From: a virus
Taxonomy: Duplodnaviria; Heunggongvirae; Uroviricota; Caudoviricetes
Reading direction: 5' to 3' (one strand)
Length of the DNA stretch: 64,000 bases
IMG/VR virus record: IMGVR_UViG_2718217789_000006
This document shows, one piece after another, positions 37,682 through 48,706 of the stretch; position 1 is the stretch's first letter, and the number at the start of each line of letters is the position of its first letter. Below the pieces are notes generated by a model. It saw nothing but the letters and a program-made list of their open reading frames with translations, was not told where the DNA came from and ran no database searches. Both the position numbers and the translations under genes were made by a program.

Positions 37682-37758
37682 GCATGCGTCAGGGACCATC
37701 GGTGTGTGCCGGTGGTCTTTTTTATTGTTGTGAGCTTCCGGATTGCGGGAGGCGGGGT

Positions 37759-37974
37759 ATGAACCAGATGGAAAAAATCACAACAGGTGTGTCATACACC
37801 ACGTCAGCGGTGGGAACGGGCTACTGGTTCCTGCAGTTGCTGGACAGGGTTTCCCCGTCTCAGTGGGCGGCAATAGGCGTGCTGGGGAGTCTGCTGTTTG
37901 GTCTGCTGACGTACCTGACGAACCTGTATTTCAAAATCAGAGAGGACAGGCGTAAGGCGGCACGGGGAGAGTAA
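37759..37974 (+). CDS. Holin (phage 21/S21-type), dual-start
   Basis: [71 protein letters not shown]; two Met codons three codons apart; GGGAGG RBS. Confidence 0.8.
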
Positions 37975-37978
37975 GCTG

Positions 37979-38512
37979 ATGAGCAGGAAACTCCGCTATG
38001 GTTTATCGGCTGCCGTTCTGGCGCTGATTGCCGCAGGTGCTTCTGCGCCTGAAATCCTCGACCAGTTTCTGGATGAAAAGGAAGGTAACCACACCACGGC
38101 ATACCGTGATGGTGCGGGTATCTGGACCATCTGCCGAGGCACCATCATGGTGGATGGTAAGCCTGTGATTCCTGGCATGAAGCTGTCGAAGGAAAAATGC
38201 GACCGGGTTAACGCTATCGAACGGGATAAGGCGCTGGCATGGGTGGAGAAAAACATCAAAGTGCCGCTGACCGAACCCCAGAAAGCGGGGATCGCGTCAT
38301 TCTGTCCGTACAACATTGGTCCCGGTAAGTGTTTCCCGTCGACGTTTTACAGACGAATTAATGCAGGTGATCGAAAAGGTGCCTGCGAAGCGATTCGCTG
38401 GTGGATTAAGGACGGCGGCAGAGACTGCCGTATTCGCTCAAACAACTGCTACGGTCAGGTATCCCGTCGCGACCAGGAGAGTGCGCTGGCGTGCTGGGGA
38501 ATTGACAGATAA
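37979..38512 (+). CDS. SAR endolysin (lysozyme, T4/lambda lysozyme family)
   Basis: 177 aa; N-terminal signal-anchor-release segment (LSAAVLALIAAGASAPE), catalytic E...D...T triad region DEKEGNHTTAYRDGAGIWTICRGT. Confidence 0.85.
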   Translation: MSRKLRYGLSAAVLALIAAGASAPEILDQFLDEKEGNHTTAYRDGAGIWTICRGTIMVDGKPVIPGMKLSKEKCDRVNAIERDKALAWVEKNIKVPLTEPQKAGIASFCPYNIGPGKCFPSTFYRRINAGDRKGACEAIRWWIKDGGRDCRIRSNNCYGQVSRRDQESALACWGIDR

Positions 38513-38810: not shown

Positions 38811-39278
38811 ATGAACCGCGTACTGTGCGTGGTCATCATTGCCCTGCTGGTGGCCTGTGGTGCGCTTAGTCTGGGGCTGAATCATTACCGTGATAACGCC
38901 ATAACCTACAAAGAGCAGCGCGATAAAAAAGTCAGTGAGCTGGAGCAGGCAAATGCAACCATTACTGATATGCAGCAGCGCCAGCGTGATGTTGCTGCAC
39001 TCGATGCAAAATACTCGAGGGAATTAGCCGATGCGAGAGCTGAAAATGAAACTCTGCGTGCTGATGTTGCCGCTGGTCGTAAGCGCCTGCGGATCAACGC
39101 CACCTGCCCCGGTACCGTGCGTGAAGCCACCGGCACCTCCGGCGTGGATAATGCAACCGGCCCCCGACTGGCAGACACCGCTGAACGGGATTATTTCATC
39201 CTCAGAGAACGGTTGATGATGATGCAGAAGCAGCTGGAAGGGGCGCAGGAATATATCCGCACTCAGTGTATTAACTAG
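38811..39278 (+). CDS. Rz i-spanin
   Basis: 155 aa; N-terminal TM (VLCVVIIALLVACGAL), coiled-coil periplasmic domain. Confidence 0.8.
   Translation: MNRVLCVVIIALLVACGALSLGLNHYRDNAITYKEQRDKKVSELEQANATITDMQQRQRDVAALDAKYSRELADARAENETLRADVAAGRKRLRINATCPGTVREATGTSGVDNATGPRLADTAERDYFILRERLMMMQKQLEGAQEYIRTQCIN
39031..39216 (+). CDS. Rz1 o-spanin lipoprotein, embedded in Rz in the +1 frame
   Basis: 61 aa; lipobox LVVSAC then Pro-rich mature region (STPPAPVPCVKPPAPPAW). Confidence 0.7.
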   Translation: MRELKMKLCVLMLPLVVSACGSTPPAPVPCVKPPAPPAWIMQPAPDWQTPLNGIISSSENG

Positions 39279-39301
39279 TATTTTTGTTATCCGGAGAATG
39301 C

Positions 39302-39526
39302 ATGAAGAAATTACTGGTAACCGTAAAGCCTTTTCAGGGAACAATTCCGTTCCGTATTTTGCAGCGTGGTCGTGTTCTTGTTGAAGGTTCGTTCAGTGGT
39401 AAATGTACGCAATTACACTCCCGGACCTTTCAGGTGAATGCCACGAATGAAGAACTAACCGTGGAGTGTACGATGAATGCCGCTAAATGCCGCATGGCAT
39501 CCGCTGCATTACAGCCAGTGTGTTGA
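39302..39526 (+). CDS. Hypothetical protein downstream of the lysis cassette
   Basis: 74 aa from ATG 39302 with GGAGAA RBS. Confidence 0.35.
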   Translation: MKKLLVTVKPFQGTIPFRILQRGRVLVEGSFSGKCTQLHSRTFQVNATNEELTVECTMNAAKCRMASAALQPVC

Positions 39527-39944
39527 GCGACCTTATTATCCATGCGCGGTATTGTCGCCGTATTCCTGCATTAACAGAGACCGCAGCCCGACAGGGAGAC
39601 TCCTCTGCGCGAGTGTGCGGGGATAATCAAAAACGATACACACCGGGGTTTACCGCGTTAACGGAGCGCGGCGTTGTCCCCTCATAGTCGCCAGTCCGGT
39701 GCGATGGTGGAAGAAACTGGATTTTGTTGCAAATGATAACCATTATCATTTTGCGGGTCCTCCTGGTGGGGTGGGCCTGAACACGGGGCGGGCGGCGCGG
39801 AAAAAGGCGCATTTTTTGATTTTTATGGCACCATCACCACCAGTGTAAGTTATTGATATATAGAAAAATAAAAATTTTTAGTGTCGAATCTGGTTGTTTT
39901 TTGTTCATCACTGGTGTGTGTTTACATAATTTTCAGGGGGAGTT

Positions 39945-40421
39945 ATGGATCGTGAATTAAAAAATCTGCATCTGAATATTTCCCAACTGGCCGCATTATC
40001 CGGTGCTCATCGACAGACTGTTGCGGCTCGGGTAAAAAACATAAGCCCAGCCGGTGGTCATGAGAGCAATCTCAAACTGTACCGACTGACAGATATCCTT
40101 GCCGAGCTGATGAAAGCTCCTCTGCCTGTAGATAACGAGGAAATGGATCCTCATGCGCGTAAAGCATGGTACCAGTCAGAACGTGACCGACTGAAATTTG
40201 AGCAGGAAACTGGTCAGCTTGTGCCAGTCAGTGATGTCAGGCGGTCCTTTTCTGTCGTGGTGAAAGCGATAGTTCAGGTACTGGAAACCTGGCCTGACCG
40301 GCTGGAGAGGGACAGGGGGTGGACCGCATCACAACTGAATGAAGTACAGATTGTGGTTGATGAGATCCGCGACACACTGGAAAAGGCAGTCATTGACTGT
40401 TGTGATGAGGCCGATATGTGA
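39945..40421 (+). CDS. Terminase small subunit
   Basis: 158 aa with N-terminal HTH-like segment (LNISQLAALSGAHRQTVAARV); stop overlaps large-subunit start. Confidence 0.65.
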   Translation: MDRELKNLHLNISQLAALSGAHRQTVAARVKNISPAGGHESNLKLYRLTDILAELMKAPLPVDNEEMDPHARKAWYQSERDRLKFEQETGQLVPVSDVRRSFSVVVKAIVQVLETWPDRLERDRGWTASQLNEVQIVVDEIRDTLEKAVIDCCDEADM

Positions 40422-42541
40422 ATCAGGTGAACGAGAGCCATAGCCGCGCATCCGATATCTGGCGCGAAGTGGCCTCGCTGTTTCGCCCACCTGGCCGGTT
40501 ACCAGTAGCGGAAGCCATCAGGCGTTATATGCGGGTTCCACGGGGAGCCAATACTTCCGGTCCGTGGGAGTCATCGCTGACGCCCTATATGATTGACCCC
40601 ATTAATACATTATCAGCCCGTGAATATGACGCGGTGGTGTTTGTGGGACCTGCGCGAACCGGGAAAACCGAAGGGCTGATTGATGGCTGGATTGTGTACG
40701 GCATCATCTGTGATCCGGCGGATATGCTGGTGGTGCAGATGACTGAGACGAAGGCGCGTGAGCATTCCAGAACGCGTCTTTCCAGGACGTTTCGCCACAG
40801 TCCGGAGGTCAGCAAGCGCCTCAGTCCTTCCCGTAATGACAACAACGTCCACGATAAAATGTTTCTTGACGGCTCCTTCCTGAAGATTGGCTGGCCGTCG
40901 ATCACCGTCTTTTCCTCTTCGGATTACCGTCGTGTGGCGCTGACGGATTATGACCGTTTCCCTGAAAACGTGGACGGGGAAGGGGATGCCTTCACGCTGG
41001 CCTCAAAGCGTACCACCACCTTTATGTCCTCGGGGATGACCCTGGTCGAGAGTTCACCGGGGCGGGATATCACCGATACCAAATGGCGTTGTGGTGGCGC
41101 ACATGAGGCACCGCCAACAACGGGGATCCTGTCACTGTATAACCGGGGAGACCGCCGCCGGTGGTACTGGCCGTGTCCGCACTGCGGGGAATATTTTCAG
41201 CCGGTGATGGATAACATGACCGGATACCGGAATAACCCGGATTTTGTGGCTGCCGGTCAGGCTGCCCGTCTGATGTGTCCGCATTGTCGCGGGCTGATTG
41301 CCCCTGAGCAGAAACGCGAACTGAATAACCAGGGGATCTGGCTTCGTGAAGGTGAACGGGCGGCGGCGGACGGCAGTATCACCGGAACGCCACGAAACTC
41401 CCGGATTGCGTCATTTTGGATGGAGGGGCCAGCTGCGGCGTTTCAGACCTGGGAACAACTGATTTTTAAACTGCTGGCGGCAGAAGAAGAGTATGAGCGA
41501 ACCGGCAGTGAAGAGACTCTGAAAGCGGTGGTGAACACCGATATCGGACGACCCTATCTGCCCCGTTCAGCCACGGAACAGCGTAAAAGTGAACTGCTTG
41601 AACAGCGTGCCGAGCCGTTTCCCCGGCGATCTGTGCCGGATGGTGTGCGTTTTATTGAGGCAACGGTTGACGTACAGGGCGGTAAAAATCGCCGTTTTGT
41701 TGTGCAGATCACCGGATACGGAGAGCAGGGGGAACGCTGGATTGTTGATCGCTACAACATCCGGCATTCACTGCGCTGCAGTCCCAACGGTGAAAGTCTG
41801 CCGGTTGATCCGGCGGCATATCCGGAGGACTGGGATTTGTTGCTGACGGATGTGTTCCATAAAACATGGCCGCTGGCTTCTGATCCGGATGTGCGCATGC
41901 GTCTGATGGCCATGGCGGTGGATACGGGAGGGGAAGCCGGGGTGACAGATAACGCCTATCGTTTCTGGCGTCGTTGCCGGAGTGACGGACTGGGCAACAG
42001 GGTGTTTCTGTTCAAGGGGGATGGACTTCGCCGTGACAGGCTGATTAACCGAACCTTCCCGGATAATACCGGCAGAAGTGCCCGCCGTGCCAGAGCCAGT
42101 GGCGATGTCGCGCTGTGGCTGGTTCAGACGGATGCGTTTAAGGATCGTGTAAATAATGCCCTGTGGCGTGACACACCAGGGCCGAACTATATCCACTTTC
42201 CCGACTGGCTGGGGCGGTGGTTTTACGATGAGCTGACCTATGAAGAGCGCGGCAGTGACGGAAAATGGCGAAAACCGGGCAGGGGCGCTAACGAAGCGTT
42301 TGACCTGCTGGTTTATGCGGATGCGCTTGCCGTTCTGCATGGTTACGAAAAGATCCGCTGGCCCTCCGCACCGGACTGGGCACAGCGGGAAACGTGGCTC
42401 GTCTTCCCGCAGGAGCGTTCTGGTGAAACGGTATCCCCGGAACTGACGGCCGGGGCAGAAAAACGCCGTCGCCGGAAGAAAAAACTGTGGACGGAGCGTG
42501 CGGAAGATAATCCATGGATAACATCAGGAGGCTGGTTGTGA
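40418..42541 (+). CDS. Terminase large subunit (lambda gpA family)
   Basis: 707 aa; Walker A VGPARTGKTEG; CPHCGE motif as in lambda gpA (ACPHCGEE, recalled). Confidence 0.9.
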   Translation: MNQVNESHSRASDIWREVASLFRPPGRLPVAEAIRRYMRVPRGANTSGPWESSLTPYMIDPINTLSAREYDAVVFVGPARTGKTEGLIDGWIVYGIICDPADMLVVQMTETKAREHSRTRLSRTFRHSPEVSKRLSPSRNDNNVHDKMFLDGSFLKIGWPSITVFSSSDYRRVALTDYDRFPENVDGEGDAFTLASKRTTTFMSSGMTLVESSPGRDITDTKWRCGGAHEAPPTTGILSLYNRGDRRRWYWPCPHCGEYFQPVMDNMTGYRNNPDFVAAGQAARLMCPHCRGLIAPEQKRELNNQGIWLREGERAAADGSITGTPRNSRIASFWMEGPAAAFQTWEQLIFKLLAAEEEYERTGSEETLKAVVNTDIGRPYLPRSATEQRKSELLEQRAEPFPRRSVPDGVRFIEATVDVQGGKNRRFVVQITGYGEQGERWIVDRYNIRHSLRCSPNGESLPVDPAAYPEDWDLLLTDVFHKTWPLASDPDVRMRLMAMAVDTGGEAGVTDNAYRFWRRCRSDGLGNRVFLFKGDGLRRDRLINRTFPDNTGRSARRARASGDVALWLVQTDAFKDRVNNALWRDTPGPNYIHFPDWLGRWFYDELTYEERGSDGKWRKPGRGANEAFDLLVYADALAVLHGYEKIRWPSAPDWAQRETWLVFPQERSGETVSPELTAGAEKRRRRKKKLWTERAEDNPWITSGGWL

Positions 42542-42750
42542 GCACAGAAGAAGCCAGAGAAATGATACAGCGGTACCGTGAAGCGGAAATGGCCGTACTG
42601 GAGGGAAAGTCTGTCACCTTCAACGGGCAGCAACTGACGCTGGAAAGCCTTTCTCAGATCCGCGCCGGACGTCAGGAGTGGGAACGCAGGCTTGCCGCGA
42701 TGGTGAGCCGCAGGCGGGGAAAACCGGGATTTAAACTGGCGAGGTTTTAA
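42538..42750 (+). CDS. Head-tail joining protein, gpW-like
   Basis: 70 aa from GTG 42538 with AGGAGG RBS; ...GKSVTFNGQQLTLESLSQIRAGRQEW...RRRGKPGFK resembles lambda gpW (...RRRGPAGF...). Confidence 0.55.
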   Translation: MSTEEAREMIQRYREAEMAVLEGKSVTFNGQQLTLESLSQIRAGRQEWERRLAAMVSRRRGKPGFKLARF

Positions 42751-44252
42751 TGGCAATTATTGATGATGTGATCGGCGTGTTTTCCCCCGGGTGGAAAGCA
42801 GCCAGACTGCGTTCAAGGGCGTTAATCATGGCCTATGAGGCGGTGAAACCGACCCGGACACATAAAGCCCGGCGGGAAAATCGCTCTGCTGATCAGCTCA
42901 GTAAATACGGTGCGGTTTCCCTGCGGGAGCAGGCCCGTTTTCTGGATATCAATCATGACCTGGTGATTGGTGTGTTTGACAAGCTGGAAGAGCGGGTGAT
43001 TGGTGCCAGGGGAATTATTGTGGAGCCTCAGCCATTACGAAAAAACGGGGAAATGGCGGCTGAGCTGGCTGCGGATATCCGCCGTTTGTGGGCTGAATGG
43101 TCCGTGAGTCCGGATGTGACAGGGCAGTATACCCGTCCTGTGCTTGAACGTTTACTGCTGCGGACCTGGCTGCGGGATGGTGAAGTGTTTGCGCAGATGG
43201 TCAGTGGTGCGGGAAACGGTCTGGAACGGACGGCGGGAGTGCCATTCTGGCTTGAGGCGATGGAGCCGGATTTTGTTCCCATGCGCACTGATGAATCCGC
43301 CGGACTGAATCAGGGGGTTTTTCTTGATGAGTGGGGAAGACCGAAAAAATATCTGGTTTATAAAAATTATCCGGTCAGCGGCCGGCAGAGTGATACGAAA
43401 GAAATCGCTGCCGGAAAAATGATCCACCTGAAGTTCACTCGTCGTCTGCATCAGACGCGAGGCTCATCCATGTTATCGGGGGTGCTGATGCGGATCAGTG
43501 CCCTTAAGGAGTATGAGGATGCGGAACTGACAGCGGCGCGTATTGCTGCGGCGCTGGGACTGTATATCCGTAAAGGTGACGGACAGGACTATGAAGATCC
43601 GGGGAGCAAAGAGACCGAGCGGGAAGTCCATATCACCCCGGGTATTATTTATGACGATTTGCGCAAGGGCGAGGATATCGGCATGGTCAAATCTGACCGT
43701 CCCAATCCCAACCTTGAAACTTTCCGCAACGGCCAGTTGCGTGCAGTGGCAGCAGGCAGTCGTCTGAGTTTTTCCAGTGCGGCGCGTAACTATAACGGCA
43801 CCTACAGCGCCCAGCGGCAGGAGCTGGTCGAGTCCACGGATGGTTACCTGATCCTGCAGGACTGTTTTATTGGCGCGGTAACCCGCCCGGTGTACCGGAC
43901 ATGGCTGAATATGGTGGTTGCGGCAGGTCTGCTGAAAATTCCGGCGGATGTGGAGATGAAAACGCTATATAACGCGACGTATTCCGGTCCGGTGATGCCG
44001 TGGATCGACCCGGTTAAGGAAGCTGAAGCCTGGAGAATTCAGATCCGGGGTGGTGCAGCGACAGAATCTGACTGGGTGCGTGCTGGTGGGCGCAATCCGG
44101 ATGAGGTCAAACGTCGCCGCAAGGCTGAAATTGATGAAAACAGCAGACTGGGGCTGGTCTTTGATACTGACCCCGTCAACGACAAAGGAGGCAACAGTGC
44201 CGGAACTGAACGACAGTATCAGCGCGACACCGAAAGCCAGCATGAAGAATAA
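42750..44252 (+). CDS. Portal protein
   Basis: 500 aa between gpW-like gene and the protease-capsid gene. Confidence 0.8.
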   Translation: MAIIDDVIGVFSPGWKAARLRSRALIMAYEAVKPTRTHKARRENRSADQLSKYGAVSLREQARFLDINHDLVIGVFDKLEERVIGARGIIVEPQPLRKNGEMAAELAADIRRLWAEWSVSPDVTGQYTRPVLERLLLRTWLRDGEVFAQMVSGAGNGLERTAGVPFWLEAMEPDFVPMRTDESAGLNQGVFLDEWGRPKKYLVYKNYPVSGRQSDTKEIAAGKMIHLKFTRRLHQTRGSSMLSGVLMRISALKEYEDAELTAARIAAALGLYIRKGDGQDYEDPGSKETEREVHITPGIIYDDLRKGEDIGMVKSDRPNPNLETFRNGQLRAVAAGSRLSFSSAARNYNGTYSAQRQELVESTDGYLILQDCFIGAVTRPVYRTWLNMVVAAGLLKIPADVEMKTLYNATYSGPVMPWIDPVKEAEAWRIQIRGGAATESDWVRAGGRNPDEVKRRRKAEIDENSRLGLVFDTDPVNDKGGNSAGTERQYQRDTESQHEE

Positions 44253-47953: not shown

Positions 47954-48706
47954 ATGGCAACACCAAATCCCCTTGAGCCGGTAAAAGGTGCCGGTACCAC
48001 TCTGTGGGTTTACAACGGCAAGGGTGATGCTTATGCAAACCCGTTGTCAGACGATGACTGGCAGCGACTGGCTAAGGTGAAGGATCTGACGCCGGGCGAG
48101 ATGACGGCAGAACCCTACGATGATAACTACCTGGATGATGAAGACGCGGACTGGACCGCGACCGGGCAGGGGCAGAAGTCTGCAGGAGATACCAGTTTTA
48201 CGCTGGCCTGGAAACCGGGAGAAGAAGGTCAGAAAGGGCTTATAGGCTGGTTTGAAAGCGGGGATGTGCGGGCCTATAAAATCCGTTTCCCAAATGGCAC
48301 GGTGGATGTGTTCCGTGGCTGGGTCAGCAGTATCGGTAAGGCCGTGACGGCGAAAGAAGTGATCACCCGCACGGTGAAAGTCACTAACGTGGGCAAACCT
48401 TCCGTGGCGGAAGAACGCAGCGAAATTACGCCGGCCACTGCAATTAAGGTGACACCGACATCCGGTACGGTGGCAAAAGGGAAAACAACCACCCTGACGG
48501 TTTCTTTTGAGCCGGAAAGTGCAACCGACAAGACGTTCAGAGCGGTTTCCGCCGATCCGTCGAAAGCCACCATTAGTGTGAAAGATATGACAATTACGGT
48601 AAACGGCGTGGCGACAGGTAAGGTGCAGATCCCTGTGGTGAGCGGAAATGGTCAGTTCGCCGCAGTGGCTGAAGTCACCGTTACTGAAGCGGGCGCTGCA
48701 GGGTAA
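47954..48706 (+). CDS. V: Major tail tube protein V (identical to the prophage A copy)
   Basis: 250 aa, protein identical to 1645..2397. Confidence 0.95.

What the first reader, a model, noticed from the sequence alone, without database searches (positions are those of the whole stretch)
39530..39944. Candidate cos/packaging region upstream of the terminase genes
The 400-bp non-coding interval before the small terminase subunit has a GC-rich segment (GGGGCGGGCGGCGCGG) next to AT-rich sequence, reminiscent of lambda cosN/cosB organisation for a gpA-family terminase.
Basis: inference. Interest (0 to 1): 0.3.

Follow-up and report, generated by a model that had tools for sequence, protein, structure and literature searches.

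The report
Lambda-type cos site of a prophage

Summary
A 418-bp gap (39527-39944) separates the lysis genes from a DUF1441 small terminase and a gpA-family large terminase. It contains GGGGCGGGCGGCGCGG (39785-39800) followed by DNA of about 32% GC.

The cos interpretation is supported, but only for 39731-39944. This stretch is collinear with phage lambda's real cos:
- a TGATAAC-C-ATTATCA palindrome;
- the 7-bp cosQ GGGTCCT (39755-39761), identical to lambda;
- a 24-bp spacer;
- cosN (CG|GGGCGGGCGGCG|CG, 39784-39799);
- a cosB-like region with R3-like, IHF-core, inverted R2-like and R1-like sites ending at the terminase start.

The same layout recurs in dozens of DUF1441/gpA phages. An infectious, near-identical phage (ASU11), sequenced from virion DNA, has a record lacking exactly the 44 bp around the predicted cosN, as expected if the physical ends lie there. 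The ends themselves have not been mapped. The 12-nt overhang is inferred.

The left part (39544-39722) is not cos. It is a roughly 180-nt non-coding element with significant base-pair covariation. It occurs in about 400 lambdoid and Stx phage records and has no Rfam match.

Verdict: an ordinary new member of the lambda-like cos family, of low interest. The RNA element is a more interesting by-product.

The parts
39544..39722 (+). Conserved, structured, non-coding RNA-like element downstream of the lysis cassette. It is NOT part of cos.
   Evidence: It is present in about 400 phage records, including 933W-type Stx2 phages that lack a lambda-type terminase, and in 1890 of 5426 complete E. coli genomes. 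In a 20-sequence alignment (A3), the consensus of 41 pairs is 98% paired. Eight pairs show compensatory changes, against 2.7+/-1.0 in shuffles (0 of 500), and the slid controls fall to 33-61% paired. Frequent U-G pairs favour the + strand. It is not coding: third codon positions are the least variable, and copies carry in-frame stops and frameshifts. No credible Rfam match; the only hit up to E=10 was a chance-level miRNA family at E 3.9.
39731..39751 (.). AT-rich palindrome AAATGATAA-cca-TTATCATTT, with core TGATAACCATTATCA at 39734-39748, lying 6 bp upstream of cosQ. It is homologous to lambda's TGATAATCATTATCA (48453-48467).
   Evidence: Inverted repeat I8. Lambda carries the same palindrome 5 bp upstream of its cosQ. 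49 of 103 unique lambda-like cos sites carry it with at most 2 mismatches, mostly 5-7 bp from cosQ; other sites have a terminator-like hairpin there instead. From memory, it resembles the Fur 7-1-7 box. Its function is unknown.
39755..39761 (+). cosQ-like heptamer GGGTCCT, the packaging-termination signal in lambda.
   Evidence: Identical to lambda 48473-48479. It lies 24 bp upstream of the predicted nick, against 23 bp in lambda and 22 bp in LLS. It is conserved across the DUF1441/gpA family. Feiss-lab papers describe cosQ as a highly conserved 7-bp site.
39784..39799 (.). cosN: CG|GGGCGGGCGGCG|CG. The predicted top-strand nick (N1) lies between 39785 and 39786, and the predicted bottom-strand nick (N2) between 39797 and 39798. 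The predicted 12-nt 5' cohesive end is GGGCGGGCGGCG (39786-39797).
   Evidence: The left half, ACG|GGGCGG, is identical to lambda, LLS and cdtI. The 12-nt placement gives 5 of 8 symmetric pairs with CG on both flanks, the same as lambda and in line with the published 10 of 16 symmetric bp. The ASU11 virion-derived record lacks 39778-39821, which is centred on this site. The nick positions are inferred, not mapped.
39798..39826 (+). Conserved spacer between cosN and R3 (CGGAAAAAGGCGCATTTTTTGATTTTTAT), containing A and T tracts.
   Evidence: The block CGCGG-R-A/T-GGC-NNN-TTTT is invariant or nearly so across nine family members. Lambda has CGCGGGTTTTCGCTATTTATG at the same place.
39827..39845 (+). 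R3-like small-terminase binding site (GGCACCATCACCACCAGTG), with core CATCAC at 39832-39837.
   Evidence: A conserved block (CATCAYCAYCA) in alignment A1. The core starts 47 nt from N1 and 45-48 nt in relatives, matching the published 47+/-2 bp rule for lambda's R site (cited). The R3 type co-varies with the TerS N-terminal region.
39846..39858 (-). IHF-consensus core (minus strand TATCAATAACTTA = WATCAANNNNTTR), in the position of lambda's I1 between R3 and R2.
   Evidence: A strict core lies 61-62 nt from N1 in 13 of 36 unique family cosB sequences, against 0.18 expected in shuffles. A TTGAT core is conserved in A1. Binding was not tested.
39878..39893 (-). R2-like site in inverted orientation (+ strand TTAGTGTCGAATCTGG; reverse complement ...ATTCGACACTAA), with core at 39881-39886.
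   Evidence: A conserved GATGTCGA / GATGATGA block in A1. It is inverted relative to R3 and R1, as in lambda cosB. The core type changes in concert with R3 and R1 across lineages.
39901..39916 (+). R1-like site (TTGTTCATCACTGGTG), with core CATCAC at 39906-39911.
   Evidence: A conserved TTGTTCAYCAYC block immediately upstream of, or overlapping, the TerS start in all family members.
39936..39947 (+). Shine-Dalgarno sequence GGGGGAG and the ATG of the small terminase gene.
   Evidence: Read directly from the sequence.
39945..40421 (+). Small terminase subunit (DUF1441 family), the presumed reader of the R sites.
   Evidence: Pfam DUF1441 at E 2.3e-49. phrog_141 'terminase small subunit' at 5.7e-69 and phrog_57 at 2.6e-11. 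A collinear profile-profile match to lambda Nu1 at E 8.8e-5, probability 60%.
40418..42541 (+). Large terminase subunit of the gpA family (ATPase plus endonuclease), the presumed cosN nickase.
   Evidence: Pfam GpA_ATPase at 1.8e-81 and GpA_nuclease at 6.2e-84.

Best explanation
Window 39731-39944 is the cohesive-end site (cos) of a lambdoid prophage, built like lambda's cos.

Inferred mechanism, by homology with lambda:
1. The DUF1441 small terminase binds the three R-like repeats: R3 forward, R2 inverted, R1 forward.
2. IHF bends the DNA at the core between R3 and R2.
3. This anchors a dimer of the gpA-type large terminase on cosN.
4. The dimer nicks the top strand after 39785 and the bottom strand 12 bp away. 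That gives a left chromosome end starting 5'-GGGCGGGCGGCG.
5. DNA is then pumped rightwards into the prohead, terminase genes first.
6. When the next cos arrives, GGGTCCT (cosQ) upstream of cosN triggers the terminating cut.

What the sequence and its relatives show directly: the order, spacing and conservation of the sub-sites, the gene context, and the existence of an infectious phage with the same cos region. What is inferred: the exact nick positions, the overhang length, and TerS and IHF binding.

For: - Gene context: holin, lysozyme, Rz, then the gap, then DUF1441 TerS, gpA TerL and a lambda-type portal.
- Collinearity with lambda's actual ends: palindrome, cosQ 7 of 7, a 24- versus 23-bp spacer, ACG|GGGCGG, and a CGCGG-type right flank.
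- The composite motif is unique in the window and absent from 100 shuffles.
- Family conservation: the alignment of 9 DUF1441/gpA phages keeps all blocks while the surrounding DNA diverges. In a sample of 133 lambda-like cosQ-cosN sites from IMG/VR, 39 precede DUF1441 TerS genes and 69 precede Nu1 genes.
- Record ends: LLS is annotated with a 12-nt 5' end, GGGCGGCGCGCT, at the homologous place, and cdtI starts at GGGCGGGAGCGT.
- cosN: the 12-nt reading has lambda-like symmetry (5 of 8 pairs) and CG flanks. The R3 core lies 47 nt from N1.
- An IHF core sits at a fixed position, in 13 of 36 sequences against 0.18 expected by chance.
- The R-site type co-varies with the TerS N-terminus.
- TerS shows remote homology to Nu1.
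- ASU11, an infectious, mitomycin-induced phage sequenced from virion DNA with a tagmentation library, is about 99% identical here. Its record lacks exactly 39778-39821.
- Literature: Gifsy-1 is listed among lambda-like cos phages, and putative cos sites of O157 prophages have been aligned with lambda.
Against: - No physical end mapping exists for this prophage.
- The LLS and mEp213 ends are themselves inferred by their authors. The cdtI and yong2 record starts could not be traced to an experiment.
- The distance between the conserved flanks (ACG ... CGCGG) is 10 bp here, against 12 bp in most relatives. The position of the right nick, and so the overhang length, is therefore uncertain. The symmetry test separates the options only weakly (12 nt: 5 of 8; 13 nt: 5 of 8 but without the CG flank; 10 nt: 4 of 7).
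- The R cores are short (6 nt) and were recognised after the fact.
- The hhalign probability for TerS against Nu1 is only 60%.
- The ASU11 gap could in principle be a real deletion or an assembly accident.
- The prophage could be defective elsewhere.
Confidence: 0.88

Rival explanations
1. The site is a decayed or non-functional cos relic in a defective prophage. The sequence resembles cos, but the 2-bp shorter right half of cosN prevents correct nicking.
For: The flank-to-flank spacing is 10 bp rather than 12 bp, and 11 bp in VT1-Sakai (Sp15). Sp15 is one of the O157 prophages described as defective in head formation or packaging.
Against: The same cosN version occurs in several independent contigs with intact cognate TerS genes. 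Phage 1720a-02 has it, and infectious, transducing ASU11 has a near-identical cos region. TerS, TerL and portal are full length. The N1-to-R3 distance is preserved, and a regular 12-nt reading with CG flanks exists. Most Sakai prophage DNAs, Sp15 included, were found packaged.
Confidence: 0.07
2. The terminase cuts here but leaves a 10- or 11-nt (or 13-nt) overhang instead of 12 nt. The site would then be a length variant of lambda-like cosN specific to this O157-type sub-lineage.
For: Spacings of 10-11 bp between ACG and CGCGG occur only in the sub-lineage whose right flank is CGCGGAAAAA(A/G)GCG, and in several sequence versions: GGGCGGGCGG, GGGCGGGCGGG, GGGCGGGTCGG, GGGCGGAGGGG, GGGCGGGAAG and GGGCGGGAGG. 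In VT1-Sakai a 12-nt reading loses the CG flank, while a 13-nt reading keeps it.
Against: The two-fold terminase geometry is thought to fix a 12-bp stagger. In the window the 12-nt reading satisfies the symmetry and CG-flank rules as well as lambda does.
Confidence: 0.15
3. The GC-rich and AT-rich junction is a transcription signal for the terminase operon (an intrinsic terminator or a promoter), or a pac site for headful packaging, and not a cos site.
For: A GC-rich stretch followed by T runs (GGCGCATTTTTTGATTTTT) superficially resembles a terminator, and the region is intergenic.
Against: Consensus scans found no promoter-like site, and the only terminator-like site in 39200-40100 lies inside the upstream ORF. 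The GC block has no stable stem. The large terminase is of the gpA (5'-cos) type, not a headful type. The cosQ/cosN homology with lambda is specific.
Confidence: 0.02

Closest known systems
Bacteriophage lambda cos (cosQ-cosN-cosB; also phages 21, phi80, 434, N15)
   Same: The sub-sites come in the same order, with similar spacing and the same orientation relative to the terminase genes. cosQ is identical (GGGTCCT). The left half of cosN is identical (ACG|GGGCGG). CG flanks are present and 5 of 8 pairs are symmetric. cosB has the R3 - IHF - inverted R2 - R1 layout, with R3 about 47 bp from the nick. The same AT-rich palindrome lies just upstream of cosQ. The large terminase is of the gpA family.
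   Different: The small terminase is DUF1441, not Nu1, with only remote homology (E 8.8e-5). The R-site sequences are unrelated to lambda's. [quoted passage not shown] The conserved right flank is shifted by 2 bp. cosB is shorter, with the TerS ATG 160 nt from N1 against 191 nt in lambda.
Putative cos sites of DUF1441/gpA lambdoid phages: Gifsy-1, mEp213/mEp043, LLS, cdtI, phi458/mEp460, Fels-1, VT1-Sakai (Sp15)
   Same: They share the terminase pair, the block structure (alignment A1), the position of R3 and the IHF core. For VT1-Sakai, CP-1639, 1720a-02 and ASU11 the sequence is nearly the same.
   Different: Most of them have 12 bp between ACG and CGCGG, where the window lineage has 10 bp and VT1-Sakai has 11 bp. 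The R-site flavour is CATCAC/CGACAC here and CATCATC/CGACATC in the LLS, Fels-1 and VT1-Sakai lineages.
cos of phage-inducible chromosomal islands (PICI) that hijack lambda-like helpers
   Same: They have cosQ and cosN nearly identical to lambda-like phages, with matching spacing.
   Different: PICI cos sites lack recognisable R repeats and are followed by rppA rather than a terminase gene. Here the R repeats and a complete terminase operon are present.

Membership tests
lambda-like cos site | It lies immediately upstream of the small and large terminase genes, and the large subunit belongs to the gpA family. | tested here: met
   TerS is at 39945-40421 and TerL at 40418-42541, with GpA_ATPase at 1.8e-81 and GpA_nuclease at 6.2e-84. 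phrog_141 TerS scores 5.7e-69.
lambda-like cos site | A conserved 7-bp cosQ (GGGTCCT) lies about 23 bp upstream of the top-strand nick. | tested here: met
   GGGTCCT is at 39755-39761, 24 bp from the predicted N1. In lambda it is at 48473-48479, 23 bp away.
lambda-like cos site | [quoted passage not shown] | tested here: met
   CG|GGGCGGGCGGCG|CG. The left 6 of 6 bases are identical and 7 of 12 match overall. Five of 8 pairs are symmetric, the same as lambda. Caveat: the usual CGCGG flank is 2 bp closer than in most relatives.
lambda-like cos site | cosB has three small-terminase binding repeats in the order R3 - I1 (IHF) - R2 - R1, with R2 inverted and R3 about 47 bp from the nick. | tested here: met
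   The sequence pattern is met. The cores are CATCAC (39832-37), inverted CGACAC (39881-86) and CATCAC (39906-11). A perfect IHF core is at 39846-58. R3 lies 47 nt from N1. The blocks are conserved and co-vary across lineages. Protein binding was not tested.
lambda-like cos site | The small terminase is a Nu1-like protein with an N-terminal helix-turn-helix DNA-binding domain. | tested here: inconclusive
   Pairwise BLASTP aligns only the N-terminal region, at 24% identity and E 0.012. The profile-profile match is collinear over 137 columns, with E 8.8e-5 but only 60% probability. A secondary hit to phrog_57 'terminase small subunit' scores 2.6e-11. No solved homologue was found, and no structure prediction was run.
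lambda-like cos site | Virion DNA has 12-nt 5'-protruding complementary ends at this position. | not testable with these tools
   Support is indirect only. The virion-derived ASU11 record lacks exactly the 44 bp around the predicted cosN. The LLS end annotation is an inference by its authors.
headful (pac) packaging site | A headful-type large terminase, no cosQ/cosN, and permuted, terminally redundant DNA. | tested here: not met
   The large terminase is of the gpA type, and cosQ and cosN are present. DNA permutation is not testable here.
Fur box (for the palindrome 39734-39748) | A match to the 7-1-7 consensus TGATAATnATTATCA, overlapping a promoter whose expression responds to iron. | tested here: inconclusive
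   The sequence matches 13 of the 14 specified positions of the 15-bp consensus, and lambda matches all 14. The consensus is recalled from memory. No promoter-like site was found in 39200-40100. Fur binding was not tested.

The most novel reading that the evidence does not exclude
The interval is composite. Next to an ordinary cos it holds a structured RNA motif of about 180 nt (39544-39722, + strand) that I could not find in Rfam or in the papers I searched. The motif is conserved between the lysis and packaging modules of about 400 lambdoid and Stx phage records, whatever their terminase type.

The most novel reading is that this is a functional RNA of the late transcript, for example a processing or stability element, or a regulator of packaging-gene expression.

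Two lesser possibilities remain open. The Fur-box-like palindrome abutting cosQ, shared with lambda itself, could be a real protein-binding site. The cosN of this sub-lineage could yield non-12-nt cohesive ends.
Probability: 0.35. Interest if true: 0.55.

Novelty: new member of a known kind. Interest (0 to 1): 0.2.

Why it matters
For the cos site, the value is mainly in annotation.
- It fixes the orientation and the ends of the packaged chromosome for a large group of O157-type and Stx-converting prophages. Database records for these carry no cos feature, or carry spurious ORFs across it.
- It tells which prophages and satellites could be packaged by the same terminase, because cognate cosB and TerS types co-vary. 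That bears on how virulence genes are mobilised within the O157 prophage pool.

The by-product may matter more. A widespread, covarying RNA structure in the late operon of Stx phages would be a new handle on late-gene expression, which is the transcript context that also carries the Shiga toxin genes.

Tried and rejected
- **Rfam, two scans, the second with lax filters.** Nothing credible in the interval. The only hits were a sub-threshold Esr41-like hit at 37080-37156 and chance-level matches.
- **Promoter and terminator scan.** No sites in the cos part.
- **Close phage matches as a source of physical ends.** All are prophage-derived records with cos in the middle.
- **mEp460_4F5.** Its record starts 5 nt upstream of the predicted nick and has a 3-nt shorter cosN, so I do not treat it as evidence for ends.
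- **The LLS 'cohesive site' annotation.** It turned out to be an inference, not a measurement.
- **Vahanian et al. 2017 (cosN natural history).** It could not be read.
- **Literature searches with cosN and RNA-element sequence strings.** They returned only unrelated papers.
- **Papers on prophage sRNAs (AgvB/AsxR, Pas, svsR).** The anti-sRNA paper places AgvB/AsxR in the moron site 3' of PR', not here. My term searches of the Pas and svsR papers (terminase, cos, spanin, lysis) found nothing about their locations.
- **Single-sequence folding of the left element.** Not significant (z -0.2 and +1.1). The case for structure rests on covariation.
- **The ORF across the left element (phrog_6954 'Rz-like spanin').** Rejected as coding.
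Downgraded after the symmetry and CG-flank test.
- **A genome-collection scan for the RNA core.** It found essentially only Escherichia.

Full report
**What is there.** The window matches an E. coli chromosome (strain 9000) at 100% across the interval. The local genes form a lambdoid late-operon junction:
- a P21-type holin (37684-37974), a lysozyme (37979-38512) and Rz (38811-39278);
- a small ORF (39284-39526);
- a 418-bp gap;
- a DUF1441 protein (39945-40421);
- a gpA-family large terminase with ATPase and nuclease domains (40418-42541);
- a lambda-family portal (42750-44252);
- a ClpP-protease/capsid fusion.

PHROGs names the DUF1441 protein a terminase small subunit (E 5.7e-69). The 49 bp ending there are 80% GC and the following 144 bp are 32% GC, against 52.5% for the window.

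**Comparison with lambda itself.** I fetched lambda's real ends.
- Lambda reads ...GATGATAATCATTATCACTTTAC-GGGTCCT-TTCCGGTGATCCGACAGGTTACG | GGGCGGCGACCT-CGCGGGTTTTCGC...
- The window reads ...AAATGATAACCATTATCATTTTGC-GGGTCCT-CCTGGTGGGGTGGGCCTGAACACG GGGCGGGCGGCG-CGGAAAAAGGCGC...

The AT-rich palindrome, the 7-bp cosQ (lambda 48473-48479; window 39755-39761), a 23- versus 24-bp spacer, and the ACG|GGGCGG left half of cosN are all collinear. The composite pattern GGGTCCT-N18-28-CGGGGCGG occurs once in the 64 kb and in none of 100 shuffles.

**Relatives.** tblastn with the small terminase found 56 phage records. Several start at or next to the homologous sequence.
- LLS starts with GGGCGGCGCGCT, annotated as a 12-nt 5' cohesive end.
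- cdtI starts with GGGCGGGAGCGT.
- yong2 starts exactly one cohesive-end length further in.

The LLS paper shows that this end is inferred from the terminase type and from Feiss's analysis of mEp213. It was not mapped.

Feiss-lab papers define lambda-like cos as follows:
- 12-nt 5' ends resembling lambda's, with variation mainly in bases 7-12;
- conserved CG dinucleotides beside both nicks;
- a highly conserved 7-bp cosQ;
- cosB = R3-I1-R2-R1, with R2 inverted.

They already list Gifsy-1, a relative of this terminase group, as a member. The reference list of one of these papers cites Higgins and Becker's finding that the R site lies 47+/-2 bp from the nick.

A scan of IMG/VR for cosQ-N-ACGGGGCGG gave 133 sites. 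Of these, 69 are followed by Nu1-type small terminase genes and 39 by DUF1441-type genes. This arrangement is therefore a recurrent class.

**cosB.** An alignment of nine DUF1441/gpA phages (A1) keeps these blocks:
- palindrome, cosQ and cosN;
- a CGCGG-A/T-GGC-TTTT block;
- an R3-like block (CATCAYCAYCA);
- a TTGAT core;
- an inverted GATGTCGA / GATGATGA block;
- a TTGTTCAYCAYC block next to the terminase start.

In the window these sites are:

| Site | Coordinates | Core |
|---|---|---|
| R3 | 39827-39845 | CATCAC, 47 nt from the predicted nick |
| IHF core | 39846-39858 | minus strand TATCAATAACTTA, a perfect match |
| R2 (inverted) | 39878-39893 | CGACAC |
| R1 | 39901-39916 | CATCAC |

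The strict IHF core sits 61-62 nt from the nick in 13 of 36 unique family sequences, against 0.18 expected by chance. The N1-to-R3 distance is 45-48 nt in all lineages. The three R cores change together between lineages. The R3 type also tracks the N-terminal region of the small terminase: CATCACCAC goes with AGGHESN, and CATCATCATC with APGSN, with two exceptions. This is what cognate protein-site pairs would show, although only a handful of lineages are independent.

A profile-profile comparison of DUF1441 proteins with Nu1 proteins gives a collinear match over 137 columns (E 8.8e-5, probability 60%). That is suggestive but not conclusive.

**The cosN oddity.** Between the conserved flanks ACG and CGCGG there are 12 bp in lambda and most relatives. 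The window has 10 bp and VT1-Sakai has 11 bp. All 10-11-bp versions belong to one sub-lineage.

Read as a fixed 12-bp stagger from the conserved left nick, the window gives CG|GGGCGGGCGGCG|CG. This has 5 of 8 symmetric pairs and CG on both sides, the same as lambda. I therefore predict a 12-nt end at 39786-39797, with moderate confidence. A different overhang length is kept as a rival.

**Evidence for function.** Phage ASU11 (= vB_EcoS_ULI-O80_Stx2d) was induced with mitomycin C, is infectious and lysogenises K-12. Its virion DNA was sequenced with a Nextera Flex library.

ASU11 is about 99% identical to the window here, but its record lacks exactly the 44 bp equivalent to 39778-39821: 8 bp left and 36 bp right of the predicted top-strand nick. 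Loss of terminal bases followed by joining of the two ends would produce this. I treat it as indirect physical evidence. Phage 1720a-02 has an identical cosN. For O157 Sakai, putative cos sites have been aligned with lambda, and most prophage DNAs were found packaged.

**The left part is something else.** Window 39544-39722 is conserved on its own in about 400 phage records. These include 933W-type Stx2 phages with unrelated terminases. In the records I inspected it lies between the lysis/bor genes and the packaging genes.
- Twenty diverse copies (A3) support a consensus of 41 base pairs in 7 helices. The cells are 98% paired, and eight pairs show compensatory changes against 2.7+/-1.0 in shuffles (0 of 500). 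The slid controls fall to 33-61% paired.
- Abundant U-G pairs favour the + strand, which is the sense of the late transcript.
- An ORF that some annotators call here (phrog_6954) fails a coding test. Third codon positions are the least variable (6 of 32, against 15 of 33 and 13 of 33), and several copies carry in-frame stops or frameshifts.
- No credible Rfam match; the only hit up to E=10 was a chance-level miRNA family at E 3.9. No paper turned up from sequence searches.
- The core is essentially confined to Escherichia in a species-level genome collection.
- Its function is unknown. A processing or stability element, or a regulator of the late transcript, is my best guess.

**Verdict.** This is an ordinary lambda-type cos site belonging to the DUF1441/gpA branch, unannotated in the database records I looked at and not surprising. 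Confidence that it is the cos site is about 0.88. Confidence in the exact 12-nt end is about 0.65.

Noticed in passing
window 39544-39722 (+): A non-coding element of about 180 nt with significant base-pair covariation: 41 pairs, 98% paired, and 8 compensatory pairs against 2.7 in shuffles. It is conserved between the lysis and packaging modules of about 400 lambdoid and Stx phage records and occurs in 1890 of 5426 complete E. coli genomes. It has no Rfam match, and a PHROG 'Rz-like spanin' family appears to be built on a spurious ORF across it.
   Followed up: partly
window 39731-39751; lambda 48453-48467 (L008:454-468): An AT-rich palindrome (TGATAACCATTATCA here, TGATAATCATTATCA in lambda) lies 5-7 bp upstream of cosQ in about half of 103 unique lambda-like cos sites. 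Other sites carry a terminator-like hairpin at that spot. From memory, it matches the Fur 7-1-7 box. I know of no assigned function.
   Followed up: partly
window 39786-39799; L010 (VT1-Sakai); IMG/VR loci L018-L137: One sub-lineage of DUF1441-type cos sites, with right flank CGCGGAAAAA(A/G)GCG, has 10 or 11 bp instead of 12 bp between the conserved cosN flanks, in several sequence versions. In VT1-Sakai (Sp15) a 12-nt reading loses the CG flank.
   Followed up: partly
L150 (ASU11, ON416862.2) against window 39778-39821: The GenBank record of this virion-sequenced Stx2d phage lacks 44 bp centred on the predicted cosN. This is probably an end-joining artefact, in which case the deposited genome is missing its cohesive-end region.
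   Followed up: partly
window 37080-37156 (-): A sub-threshold Rfam match to the EHEC sRNA Esr41 (30.9 bits against a gathering score of 102; E 0.0044). It includes a strong terminator hairpin and lies convergent with the 648-aa ORF that ends at 37078, just upstream of the holin gene. This is the 'moron' position where convergent prophage anti-sRNAs have been described (PMC4104026).
   Followed up: no
window 39699-39848 (+) and 39627-39812 (-); L138 1641-1913: ORFs called across cosQ and cosN in some public annotations (phrog_5188; a PGAP 'hypothetical protein', WP_001302882.1) are probably artefacts of conserved cos DNA and not genes.
   Followed up: no
window 39284-39526 (+): A small ORF between Rz and the RNA element matches only the C-terminal part of a longer PHROG family of unknown function (phrog_2571, profile positions 98-172 of 291). 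It may be a truncated gene.
   Followed up: no
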